A stretch of DNA of 21,415 nucleotides, taken from positions 1 through 21,415 of IMG/VR virus record IMGVR_UViG_2617270975_000009. The stretch is one strand, 5' to 3'. This document shows positions 6,001 to 9,000 of this stretch, piece after piece. Position 1 is the first letter of the stretch; every line of letters begins with the position of its first letter. This stretch comes from a virus (lineage: Duplodnaviria; Heunggongvirae; Uroviricota; Caudoviricetes). The position numbers are program-made.

Positions 6001-9000
6001 TTTCGAGACAAGTACGCGCGCGAGGGGTATCAGTTGCAAAAAATTTTGCAACTACGTCCGACCAGTATGCACACGATGGCGGGGGGATACCATAAAACTG
6101 TTCTCTACATGAGACAGAGTGGTGGTGATGTGTTGATTATCGGCGTATATGCGCACAGGACGCGCTATGACGATGTTTTATGCGGGTACACCAATCACAT
6201 GTATCTGGTGTGATAAATCGCGTTACATGACCTCTCATGTTGTACTGGTGGTTATCACGACGTTCTGAATCTGGCCTTTGCCTGGTATTTTGCGACAAGT
6301 ACGCGCGCGTAGCATCGAAATAATCGGATGGCGTATGCTGCTGGTAATATGAAGACCGATAGCATTAACCGTAAGGAGAAAGACTTCTCGATAACGGCAA
6401 GGGGGCTGAATTGCGAGGCGAGATTAAGCAACTGTCTTGAACGTAAAAATCATGGAGCAACATGATGGTACGATTCATTCCATTCTTCGTTCTTTCTGAG
6501 CATTGCGTTCAGGCTTAGTCAAAATTAGTGTTGCGAGCGGACCTATTAGTAATTGTTGGTGCGATGCGTCTGTTATGGATTGTTATGGTTGTGGCAGGCC
6601 TGATTAATATCCAGTATGACCACCAGCTATGAGAGGCCACCTCAGAGGTTCGCAGTTGCAGGTTTGCACTCAGGTTCGCAGGGTTTTGGCTACTTTCACG
6701 TGCGAACCTGCAGAATTGCAAAGGACAACTAAGTCCTCTGGCCAACTCCCGGTTTATGAGCGACACAGTCCGCCTGGCGCATCGTTTTCGTCGAGTGCGC
6801 CCATCAGCTTGTCCATGGACTATCCACCACTCGATATTAAAGCTAATCATTGGTTGCCAGCCCGCGAATCAAGTTTGTTCTGGATCCAAGCTTCAACCTC
6901 CTCAAGCGACCATCTAGCTGATCTACCAATTTTAACTGGCTGTGGAAACGTGCCCGTCTTAACCCATGAGTAGATTGCCGTTTTCTTGAAGCCCGTTCTG
7001 AGCATGACTTCGCTTAATTTGATAAGGCGCATAGAGGCTCCTCTGCTTTAGATTAAGCATAGTGACAATCTGGCTTTGGGTGGTATCCAAAAGCGAGGTA
7101 TCCATGTTGGTATCCACCAAAACGCTGTTTACCAAAAAGTTACCACCGGAACAGGACATTTTGAGCTGTAACTTAACACATAGCATATGGAGTTCACGCA
7201 TAGACTTCACGCACAACGGCTCTGGCCAGTGAAGAATCACCCTGGCTAGCAATATAATGCCGATCACCATCAGAGGGGAATCCATGACACCACGAGAAAT
7301 CGAGCTGCTGACCATTGCCAAGCTGGAGCATGGCGGCCACCAGCTCAGCCCGGCAGAACTGCGGGAATTAAGGCGCCAGCTGGCAGAGGGCCCTGTAATA
7401 GCCAGGCGGTACCGCGAAATGATGACCAGCCCCGCATATCGCTGGAGCAAACCAGCGCCGCTCCGTGCGCGGTGAGCAGCACCTAACCAGCACTAGACAA
7501 GCCCTGTGCTGGTGGATGTCCCTCATAATTAGCGGTTTTTAAACGGCGTGTTGGTTCACGGCCTCTTTTTGTTGGTTCAAAAATGGGGTGTGTTGGTTCA
7601 CTTTTTGCGAATAATTCTTTTAAAAACAATACTCTTTACAAATTGAACCAACTGAACCAACTGAACCAACACCTTTTTGCTTATCTATATAATCTGAGAG
7701 GCAGAAATGATAAGGGACAGGAAAGCTGAAGAGCTGGAGTCAAAAGGGCTATACCGGAGAGCTGCCGCACGATGGATGGAAGTCATGCTGTTATGCACCG
7801 AGGACGATGATCGGGAATGGATAAAGCGCCGCCGTGAAACGTGTCTGGAGAACGTGAAGCGCCCGCCCGTGAAGGTTGAGGAATTTGGCGACCTGCATAA
7901 AGCTGTTACCGAAACGCAACACCGCATGGGGATAGCGCAACCGAACGGTAACGCCTTCCGGTTAAATGGCGGCAAGAGGCAAAGGTAGACCACCAGAGGG
8001 AAATCATCCTCTGGCTGGCGGTTTCTGGTATTTCGGGACAAGTACGCGCGCGCGTAGCACCCAATCGGTGAGGAAATAGCGGCGACCTGAATGGTCAAAA
8101 TCACAACGCAGCTATCCCCGTAAGCAGCGCTTAACGGAATAGCAGTAACCTGAATCCAGTGGGGAGGGGGTAGTCAAATCTCTACAGCCCTGACTATCCG
8201 GGACTGCCCGCCCCATCGTTTTTTTATACCCGCGAAAAATGAAATTTAATCCGGGCGTGTTTCATCCTTCCAGAGGGTATGACGTATGACACCACGCGAA
8301 ATAGCCTTATTGACCATCGCCAAACTTGAGCACGGAGGCCACCAGCTTACACAGGCAGATCAACGGGAGATAGAACGATCAGTTAATGCCGATATAGCCC
8401 GGCGCGACAGGTTCCGCGAAATGATGCGAGCACCTGCCTACCAGTGGAAGAAGCCAGCGCCGCGCAGGTAGATATGGGATTATTCCACATGTAACTTATG
8501 CGTATTAAGCAAATTTCCTTTATTCACCTTTACAGAATTGTGAGTACGTCAGTATCGTTATCCTTCCGATTCGCATTTATTCAGGATTTGCATGTACCAG
8601 CTAAAGATAACCATCCGAGACAGCAAACCACCTATATGGCGGCGTGTGCTGGTTCCAGAGCAAATCCCCTTTAGTAAACTTCATGCCGTGATCCAGTTAG
8701 CTTTTGGCTGGAATGACGAACACCTGTATATGTTCGAGAAAGGGCGTAAAGGTGATCCAGGTAGCGAGTATCGCGTATGGGGTGAGGATGAAAGCATGGG
8801 TAACGCGGCAATCACGCCACTATGGGCGGCGCTCCAGAATGAGGGTGACAAGCTGGTTTACACGTATGACTTTGGCGACTGGTGGGATTGCGTCATTGTG
8901 CTGGAGAAGCAAACACACGATACGAGTAATCAGCCCATTAGCTGCCTGCGTGGGAAAGGCACCACCCCGGCGGAAAACTCAGGCGGCTTGCATGGTTACA

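What the first reader, a model, noticed from the sequence alone, without database searches (positions are those of the whole stretch)
6647..6713. Mutually exclusive hairpin arrangement built on a GGTTCGCAG core
Two direct GGTTCGCAG copies (6647-6655, 6673-6681) are followed by a single complementary TGCGAACC (6701-6708), so either copy could pair with it. This alternative-structure layout is attenuator- or riboregulator-like, and the same core recurs in hairpin loops of the satellite leader at 14349-14580. It is reminiscent of RNA-based immunity in P4-like elements.
Basis: inference. Interest (0 to 1): 0.45.

Follow-up and report, generated by a model that had tools for sequence, protein, structure and literature searches.

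The report
Orphan repeat-hairpin element of a phage satellite
The repeats are real and belong to a small conserved non-coding element of P4-related phage satellites that normally sits in front of a tail-related gene, but this copy has lost its gene, and it is not part of the P4-type RNA immunity system.

Summary
GGTTCGCAG lies at 6647-6655 and 6673-6681, with TGCGAACC at 6701-6708. A third, degenerate copy (GGTTTGCA, 6661-6668) was missed. Such a cluster is expected 0.04 times per window by chance.

It is one copy ("T-type") of a conserved block of about 170 nt (6594-6762) found in related P4-like satellites. A paralogous "A-type" has GGTACGCAG copies and TGCGTACC, a compensating change. It lies between a small HGGxSTG-type gene (named for its sequence motif; Pfam finds no family) and an HK97-gp10-like gene. 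It is there in 38 of 38 satellite-type loci and in 0 of 42 phage-type loci, always on the coding strand. The T-type keeps vestiges of both flanking genes, so the window copy is an orphaned duplicate of that junction.

Complementarity of two or three 5' copies to the single 3' copy is conserved, which supports the "alternative hairpins" idea. There is no terminator, no leader peptide and no sequestered ribosome-binding site, and the folds are not unusually stable. No C4 or isrK model matches. A sister island carries the same element with a different C4 specificity.

Most likely this is a vestigial copy of a cis-acting RNA element of a satellite late operon. A DNA-binding-site array remains a serious rival.

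The parts
6594..6762 (+). Whole conserved block (the 'T-type' repeat-hairpin element), as delimited by homology to L063, L115, L064, L108, L079, L060 and L006.
   Evidence: Alignments and BLAST. The flanks are unrelated between loci.
6594..6615 (+). Left boundary, GGCAGGCCTGATTAATATCCAG. In L115 and L063 the TGA here is the stop codon of the preceding 85-aa ORF.
6620..6627 (-). Chi sequence, GCTGGTGG on the - strand (CCACCAGC on +). In L063, L064 and L115 it pairs with an inverted second Chi (CCACCAGCC..GGCTGGTGG). That partner is lost in the window (TGCAACT). In L183-type loci the homologous stretch is the 3' coding end of the HGGxSTG gene.
6647..6655 (+). Direct copy 1, GGTTCGCAG, 54 nt upstream of the inverted copy.
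6661..6669 (+). Direct copy 2, GGTTTGCAC (degenerate). It pairs with the inverted copy through one G.U on the + strand only, and is part of the minimum-free-energy helix 6657-6669 / 6700-6712.
6673..6681 (+). Direct copy 3, GGTTCGCAG, 28 nt upstream of the inverted copy. This is the proximal hairpin arm.
   Evidence: (I18).
6700..6712 (+). Single inverted copy, GTGCGAACCTGCA. It is the shared 3' arm of all the alternative helices.
6719..6741 (.). Small conserved hairpin, CAAAGGAC-loop-GTCCTCTGG. It is found only in T-type copies. It forms 10 continuous pairs, including G.U, on the - strand and 6+3 pairs on the + strand.
   Evidence: (helix 3, 96% paired, invariant).
6748..6762 (+). CCCGGTTTATGAGCG, a vestige of the ribosome-binding-site and start region (..ATGAGAGGTGAGTAATGG) that follows A-type copies in front of the gp10-like gene.
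6440..6521 (-). Context: fragment of the last ~22 codons and the end of an IS110-family transposase.
6847..7032 (-). Context: AlpA-family gene whose 3' end faces the element, so its transcripts would enter the element in antisense.

Best explanation
The finding is an orphaned, probably vestigial copy of a conserved intercistronic element of a lineage of P4-related satellites. In its native form (A-type) the element lies on the coding strand between a small HGGxSTG-type gene and an HK97-gp10-like gene. Two to four copies of (G)GTACGCAG are followed 28-30 nt later by one TGCGTACC, which ends about 20 nt before the ribosome-binding site. I infer that it acts in the mRNA. The single 3' arm can pair with the nearest 5' copy or, alternatively, with the more distal copies, some of which lie inside the end of the upstream reading frame. 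Which helix forms would then depend on ribosomes finishing the upstream gene or on a bound factor, and this would tune the stability, processing or translation of the downstream cistron. The window copy (T-type, GGTTCGCAG/TGCGAACC) is a duplicate of this junction that has lost both flanking genes. Here it lies between an IS110 fragment and a convergent alpA gene, so at most it serves as a structured 3' region. Shown: the anatomy, the conservation, the paralogy, the compensating changes and the coding-strand position. Inferred: the RNA-level mechanism and the vestigial status.
For: The repeats are exact and non-random. Divergent homologues with unrelated flanks keep the block. A-type paralogues with the compensating motif lie in the same islands. 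They were found in front of the gp10-like gene in 38 of 38 satellite-type loci and in none of 42 phage-type loci. All of them lie on the coding strand inside an operon, and I saw no promoter-like hexamers on reading the A-type sequences, which were not scanned with the promoter tool. The geometry is constant: copies lie 28-30, 40-42 and 54-57 nt from the inverted copy. Pairing is kept in 97.9% of cells for the proximal copy and 96.9% for the middle copy. There is a U:A to A:U swap between the types, and two further compensated changes in the middle copy, L006far GGTTCCCA/TGGGAACC and L063 AGTACGCA/TGCGTACT. L183-type copies lengthen the helix by GCAGC/GCTGC. The T-type shares CCACCAGCCAGGG..GGTTCGCG(G)CTGGTGG with L183-type A copies, where that stretch encodes the end of the HGGxSTG protein. 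It also shares the TATGAG.. start vestige, which marks it as a relic of the junction. Small intergenic gene remnants are reported to be common in the variable regions of P4-like satellites (PMC13586616).
Against: Within each type both arms are invariant while the loop varies freely. That pattern suits sequence-specific recognition at least as well as plain base pairing. The compensating events are few, perhaps three independent ones. They could also arise by templated correction of a DNA quasi-palindrome or by gene conversion among the repeats. Folding energies are unremarkable: z is +0.3 to -1.3 for A-type leaders and -1.3 to -2.1 for the window. The ribosome-binding site is not sequestered and no terminator follows. 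G.U against A.C asymmetries do not settle the strand: about 5-6 favour + and 3-4 favour -. In many A-type copies the distal copy is GGTTCGCAG, which mismatches TGCGTACC. A covariance model built from A-type copies scores the window copy at only 8 bits, E about 0.1. No transcript data are available. In the window no + strand gene lies directly upstream or downstream.
Confidence: 0.42

Rival explanations
1. The repeats are DNA sites for a sequence-specific protein of the satellite or its helper, for example the adjacent zinc-ribbon-like HGGxSTG protein, an AlpA/Xis-type protein or a small terminase subunit. Three direct sites and one inverted site, separated by an A/T-tract spacer, would build a bent nucleoprotein complex. 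This resembles an operator, a phage lambda cosB-like packaging-protein site or a recombination enhancer.
For: Both arms and the extra direct copies are invariant in 16 unique A-type sequences although the spacer varies. Direct copies are 12-15 bp apart, and the spacer carries AAAA..TTTTT runs. The only other clusters of this kind in the window are the iteron arrays at 7550-7670 and 19761-19871. Variable cargo abuts the element. L006 has an Abi_2 gene between two partial copies, and L079 has ImmA/PIN cargo replacing its left part.
Against: No binding protein is shared by all the contexts. AlpA is absent near the element in L063, L115, L079 and L064, and there is no HGGxSTG gene in the window. 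Some copies are only 7 nt apart (GGTTCGCAGTACGCAG), which is awkward for proteins that bind duplex DNA. The two copy-specific compensated changes are not expected for independent binding sites. A-type copies lie inside operons a few nucleotides from a ribosome-binding site, partly in coding sequence. The cos-like sequence of this island is elsewhere, at 8156-8260.
Confidence: 0.27
2. The element has no present function anywhere in the T-type lineage. It is a decaying remnant of a duplicated gene junction that persists as a recombination scar between swapped cargo modules. The inverted repeat is kept only by mutational mechanisms.
For: It carries vestiges of a coding 3' end and of a start region. 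The left hairpin is broken in the window and in L108. An IS110 fragment and a 10-bp repeat that varies in copy number lie next to it. Truncated or hybrid copies occur in L079, L060 and L006. Such remnants are reported as frequent (PMC13586616).
Against: The core (copies 2 and 3, the inverted copy and the small hairpin) stays intact and complementary in the lineages that keep a full core (window, L063, L115, L064; near-intact in L108), although these differ by 10-20% in the block and have unrelated flanks.
Confidence: 0.2
3. One reading: the element belongs to, or is a target or decoy of, the P4-type CI/C4 antisense-RNA immunity system. GGUUCGCAG would act like seqA/seqC and UGCGAACC like seqB.
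For: The C4 RNA of this window carries ACUGCGAACUCUG, which can pair with CAGAG-G-UUCGCAGU at 6643-6656 as 8+5 pairs with one bulge. The predicted duplex energy is -21.9 kcal/mol for copy 1 and -22.1 for copy 3, against -21.9 for its own seqA and -25.4 for its own seqC. The 8-nt boxes resemble the Rfam consensus boxes of isrK and C4, UUGGcA / UgCcAACC.
Against: No C4 or isrK model matches, even at E<=10. The same element occurs with C4 RNAs of a different specificity in CFSAN061761 and L115. A non-cognate C4 gives almost the same duplex energy, -20.9, so the calculation is not specific. The element lies about 7-8 kb from the immunity region (a similar distance in CFSAN061761) and not in the leader of the primase operon. 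The 7-mer match is not significant.
Confidence: 0.05

Closest known systems
P4 immunity: CI (C4-family) RNA with seqA, seqB and seqC (as summarised in PMC4825925; Rfam RF01695 and RF01394)
   Same: Both have short complementary boxes on one strand of a P4-related element, with several 'target' boxes for one 'antisense' box. The box sequences are similar (GGUUxGCA / UGCxAACC). Alternative RNA pairings are the working principle.
   Different: The element has no C4 fold and no isrK fold. It is not in the leader of the primase operon. The boxes lie within 60 nt in cis, in the order three targets then one antisense. No terminator is associated with it. The boxes do not co-vary with the island's C4 specificity.
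Intercistronic or 3' stem-loop elements of operons, such as REP/BIME-type mRNA stabilisers (own knowledge, not tested)
   Same: Both are conserved inverted repeats between co-directional genes or just after the last gene. They are repeated within one genome or element and have no terminator U-tract.
   Different: This element is specific to one satellite lineage, has extra direct copies that offer alternative helices, and has strictly invariant arms.
Phage Mu com-mom translational control (own knowledge, a lead only)
   Same: In both, a small zinc-binding-type gene lies directly upstream, and there is a hairpin just 5' of the ribosome-binding site of the next gene.
   Different: Here the ribosome-binding site is not inside a helix. 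There is no evidence that the HGGxSTG protein binds RNA. The window copy has neither gene.
P4 ori/crr iterons bound by the alpha primase-helicase (own knowledge), represented here by the GTTGGTTCA arrays
   Same: Both are 8-9-nt repeats in direct and inverted orientation in the same island.
   Different: The motif is different and the copy number is lower. The true iteron arrays lie at 7550-7670 and, directly after the primase gene, at 19761-19871.

Membership tests
C4 / P4 CI antisense RNA (RF01695) | A match to the family covariance model. | tested here: not met
   There is no match in 6200-7300 on either strand at E<=10. The genuine C4 at 14470-14557 scores 81 bits.
C4 / P4 CI antisense RNA (RF01695) | The antisense box is matched by target boxes upstream and downstream in the leader of the replication operon, and it co-varies with them. 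| tested here: not met
   The element lies about 7-8 kb from the immunity region (a similar distance in CFSAN061761). The same element co-occurs with C4 boxes ACGCCAA (CFSAN061761, L115) and CUGCGAA (window).
isrK / seqA-type leader RNA (RF01394) | A match to the family covariance model, which includes a terminator. | tested here: not met
   There is no match and no terminator-like site in 5850-7750.
Transcription attenuator (terminator/antiterminator switch) | Mutually exclusive helices. | tested here: met
   Three 5' copies compete for one 3' arm, and complementarity is conserved.
Transcription attenuator (terminator/antiterminator switch) | One of the helices is an intrinsic terminator (G+C-rich stem followed by a U-tract). 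| tested here: not met
   The terminator scan finds none. The sequences after the 3' arm are not U-rich in either type.
Transcription attenuator (terminator/antiterminator switch) | A sensing device such as a leader peptide, ligand pocket or protein site. | tested here: inconclusive
   Short ORFs in the loop exist in some A-type copies but are not conserved (reading of the sequences). Protein binding cannot be tested here.
Alpha-type replication iterons (ori/crr) | The same repeat motif as the arrays next to the primase gene. | tested here: not met
   The iteron is GTTGGTTCA, with 12 exact copies in two arrays. The element's motif, AGGTTCGCA, is confined to 6646-6709.
GGTWCGCAG repeat-hairpin element of P4-related satellites (defined here) | At least two direct copies and one inverted copy, with the copies 28-30, 40-42 and 54-57 nt from the inverted copy. 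| tested here: met
   The window distances are 28, 40 and 54 nt.
GGTWCGCAG repeat-hairpin element of P4-related satellites (defined here) | Flanking homology: the Chi-containing left part and the start-region vestige on the right. | tested here: met
   However, a model built from A-type copies alone gives only 8 bits.
GGTWCGCAG repeat-hairpin element of P4-related satellites (defined here) | A position on the coding strand directly in front of an HK97-gp10-like gene. | tested here: not met
   There is no gp10-like gene in the window, and the neighbours are an IS110 fragment and a convergent alpA. This copy is therefore an orphan.

The most novel reading that the evidence does not exclude
The GGTWCGCAG '3+1' element is a self-contained cis-antisense RNA switch, evolutionarily related to the P4 seqA/seqB/seqC pairing code. 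It would be a second RNA-RNA control module that P4-related satellites use to time expression of virion-interference genes (gp10-like, tape-measure-like). In genomes such as this one, where the resident C4 RNA happens to carry a matching box (CUGCGAAC), the orphan copy could additionally titrate or respond to the immunity RNA.
Probability: 0.12. Interest if true: 0.65.

Novelty: new variant of a known kind. Interest (0 to 1): 0.38.

Why it matters
If the native (A-type) element really is an RNA switch or a protein-recognition site, it marks a control point for genes that satellites appear to have copied from their helper phages: an HK97-gp10-like head-tail protein and a tape-measure-like protein. 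How satellites time such interference genes is poorly understood. The element is also a practical marker. It separates satellite-borne gp10 homologues (38 of 38) from phage-borne ones (0 of 42). For this window the main value is negative. The tempting link to P4 RNA immunity is a coincidence of an 8-nt box, and the copy seen here is probably a remnant.

Tried and rejected
1. Rfam scans found nothing for the element, at gathering thresholds over the whole window and at E<=10 over 6200-7300 and over an A-type locus.

2. Coding explanation. The overlapping ORFs 6515-6850(-) and 6629-6973(+) have implausible translations, and PGAP annotates nothing there in 153 genomes.

3. IS110 bridge-RNA or IS-end idea. 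Only 6440-6521 matches IS110 elements. It is the 3' end of the transposase gene, and no other part of the IS is present.

4. tRNA or att remnant idea. No tRNA was found in the related loci. The motif breaks the T-loop consensus (A58), which is a reading from own knowledge.

5. Primase iteron idea: the motif is different.

6. Integrase arm-site idea. The motif is absent near int and att, and the element lies 1.4-3 kb from the island end.

7. A stem formed by the pair of inverted Chi sequences. It is not kept in the window or in L108. In L183-type loci the homologous stretch is coding sequence.

8. Covariation within T-type copies alone: the core pairs are invariant, so the test is uninformative.

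9. Searches for the region in plasmids and phages found no match.

10. The genome-contig scan with AlpA gave only one close relative, in Leclercia.

11. Using duplex energies to test C4 cross-talk proved unspecific.

Full report
**1. The observation**

GGTTCGCAG occurs exactly twice in the window, at 6647-6655 and 6673-6681. The complement of its first eight bases, TGCGAACC, lies at 6701-6708. A third direct copy with one change, GGTTTGCA at 6661-6668, was overlooked. Together with its flanks it forms the longest inverted repeat, 6657-6669 with 6700-6712, and this is the helix chosen in the minimum-free-energy fold of the + strand.

An 8-mer present twice directly and once inverted within this span is expected 0.04 times per shuffled window. 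The only comparable clusters in the real window are two iteron arrays and a small cluster in front of int. The folds themselves are not striking: z is -2.1 on the + strand and -1.9 on the - strand.

The claim that "the same core" recurs at 14349-14580 holds only for the 7-mer TTCGCAG. It lies in the loop of isrK hairpin 2, again after C4, and as its complement inside C4. Six matches against 3.7 expected is not significant.

**2. Surroundings**

- 786-5444 encodes P22-type ejection proteins: DUF2824, gp7, a gp20-like translocase, and a 701-aa ORF with no Pfam match at the gp16 position. 5463-5882(-) is a hypothetical gene.
- 5883-6846 is unannotated in all related E. coli genomes.
- 6440-6521 is the 3' end of an IS110-family transposase gene.
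- 6847-7032(-) is an AlpA-family gene.
- 7550-7670 holds six exact GTTGGTTCA iterons, three direct and three inverted, around an A+T-rich core. A second such array follows the primase gene at 19761-19871. This is the ori/crr layout known from P4 (own knowledge).
- PerC is at 7707-7988. A stretch at 8156-8260 resembles the cos regions of SfV, SfII, ST64B and phiP27.
- 9870-19735 is a P4-related element with int, the int-alpA RNA, alpA, AntA, isrK, C4 and a DUF927 primase.

In strain CFSAN061761 all of this forms one island, in the order thrW, int, C4, primase, ejection genes, the element, alpA(-), iterons, PerC, then the end of the island. The finding therefore belongs to the distal part of a P4-related satellite.

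**3. Relatives**

Within E. coli the 317 nt around the finding occur in 153 of 5426 genomes, all at 95.7% identity or more. The window differs from most of them at 6646, with A where they have T. An identical copy exists in metagenome contig L066.

Pattern scans and an AlpA-guided scan recovered divergent copies with unrelated flanks: L006, L060/L068, L108, L063, L115, L064 and L079. About 170 nt are shared, corresponding to window 6594-6762. From left to right the block contains:

- a short stretch that in L115 and L063 contains the stop codon of the preceding ORF;
- a Chi sequence, which in several loci is paired with an inverted second Chi;
- the three direct copies, a variable spacer and the inverted copy;
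- a small hairpin (GGACA..TGTCC);
- a ..TATGAG.. stretch.

L115 carries C4, a primase, PerC and a tape-measure-like gene upstream on the same strand as the window's + strand. The element therefore has the same orientation relative to the satellite's main operons in both lineages.

**4. A paralogous form explains the origin**

The same islands hold a second element of identical geometry but with a different motif: GGTACGCAG copies and TGCGTACC. It lies on the coding strand between a small HGGxSTG-type gene and an HK97-gp10-like gene. The gp10 family name comes from the annotation of a phage homologue.

A search with the gp10-like protein returned 80 loci. All 38 satellite-type loci (L171-L208) have this "A-type" element ending about 20 nt before the ribosome-binding site. 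In some loci a further ~85 nt lies between it and the ribosome-binding site. None of the 42 phage-type loci has it.

In some loci the distal copies lie inside the 3' end of the HGGxSTG reading frame, where they encode xTQ repeats. In others they are intergenic.

L183-type A copies share CCACCAGCCAGGG..GGTTCGCG(G)CTGGTGG with the T-type. In those loci that stretch is coding sequence. The T-type also keeps a vestige of the gp10 start region. The window element is therefore best read as a duplicate of the HGGxSTG-gp10 junction that has lost both genes.

**5. RNA structure or DNA site?**

Evidence for pairing:

- The distances from the direct copies to the inverted copy are constant at 28-30, 40-42 and 54-57 nt.
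- On an alignment of 12 T- and A-type elements the proximal copy pairs in 97.9% of cells. The middle copy pairs in 96.9% and the distal copy in 83%.
- The fourth pair is U:A in the T-type and A:U in the A-type.
- L006far has GGTTCCCA with TGGGAACC, and L063 has AGTACGCA with TGCGTACT. Both changes are specific to the middle copy.
- L183-type copies extend the helix by five pairs.

Evidence for caution:

- Within each type both arms are invariant while the spacer varies.
- The compensating events are few.
- Folding z-scores of A-type leaders range from +0.3 to -1.3.
- There is no terminator, no conserved leader ORF and no sequestered ribosome-binding site.
- G.U against A.C asymmetries do not decide the strand.
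- A covariance model built from A-type copies scores the window copy at only 8 bits.

A-type copies lie inside operons without promoter-like hexamers that I could see, and some copies are only 7 nt apart. For these reasons I favour an RNA-level role. A protein-binding DNA array remains a serious rival.

**6. The P4-immunity reading**

P4 immunity works through a processed CI RNA that pairs with seqA and seqC and causes premature termination (PMC4825925).

The window's C4 carries CUGCGAAC, which can pair with GGUUCGCAG. Predicted duplex energies with copies 1 and 3 (-21.9 and -22.1 kcal/mol) equal that with its own seqA.

Three results argue against a real link. A non-cognate C4 gives -20.9. 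No C4 or isrK model matches the element. The same element at 99.7% identity sits in an island whose seqA, seqB and seqC are UUGGCGU, ACGCCAA and UUGGCGU, and L115 shows the same. The resemblance is therefore not a conserved relationship.

**7. Verdict**

The repeats are real. The idea of alternative pairing has comparative support. The attenuator and immunity interpretations do not.

The element is an undescribed conserved non-coding motif of P4-related satellites: it is absent from Rfam, and my literature searches, which did not target the motif directly, did not turn it up. The copy in this window is an orphan that is probably vestigial. That fits the report that small intergenic gene remnants abound in the variable regions of these satellites (PMC13586616).

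Noticed in passing
window 7545-7672 and 19761-19871: Two arrays of the exact 9-mer GTTGGTTCA. Each has three direct and three inverted copies around an A+T-rich core. One array lies before PerC and the other directly after the DUF927 primase gene. This is the ori/crr-like arrangement expected for a P4-type primase-helicase.
   Followed up: partly
window 14330-14600 compared with L251 (reverse strand, about 9390-9680): Two satellites that are 95% identical differ in all three immunity boxes in a compensating way. The window has UUCGCAG / CUGCGAA / UUCGCAG, and CFSAN061761 has UUGGCGU / ACGCCAA / UUGGCGU. This looks like a switch of immunity specificity.
   Followed up: partly
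window 8156-8260: About 100 nt resemble the cos regions of phages SfV, SfII, SfIV, ST64B and phiP27 at 81-95% identity. This suggests that the island is packaged by helpers of that type rather than by P2.
   Followed up: no
window 786-5444; L063, L115 and L079: P4-related satellites carry virion-type genes after the primase. Here these are P22-type ejection proteins (DUF2824, gp7, gp20-like and a 701-aa ORF with no Pfam match at the gp16 position). In the relatives they are a 904-aa tape-measure-like protein, an HGGxSTG protein and an HK97-gp10-like protein.
   Followed up: partly
window 6620-6627 (- strand); L063, L064 and L115: A Chi sequence (GCTGGTGG) is conserved in the element. In several relatives two Chi sequences face each other as an inverted repeat about 26-28 nt apart.
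   Followed up: partly
L006 3336-3444 and 5258-5442: In Leclercia two partial copies of the element flank an Abi_2 gene with its abiF RNA. The copy next to alpA is a hybrid with an A-type 5' arm and a T-type 3' arm. This points to recombination within the element during cargo exchange.
   Followed up: partly
window 6440-6521: An 82-nt remnant of the 3' end of an IS110-family transposase gene. It matches IS110 copies in about 2400 E. coli genomes at 91-95% identity.
   Followed up: yes
window 6572-6591: The tandem repeat TGTTATGGAT/TGTTATGGTT has two units here and three in strain 005008 (L004).
   Followed up: no
window 9819-9867: GGGGGTA occurs twice directly and once inverted just upstream of the integrase start at 9870. 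These may be arm-type or promoter-associated sites.
   Followed up: no
window 1-90 and 20998-21114: IS3-family ALIL frameshift pseudoknots lie at both ends of the window. The order of the island parts differs from CFSAN061761, which suggests an IS3-mediated rearrangement or a tandem island.
   Followed up: no
window 7257-7475 and 8286-8471: Two paralogous small ORFs of 72 and 61 aa. The first precedes the iteron array and is conserved next to the element in L006, L063, L079, L108 and L115.
   Followed up: no
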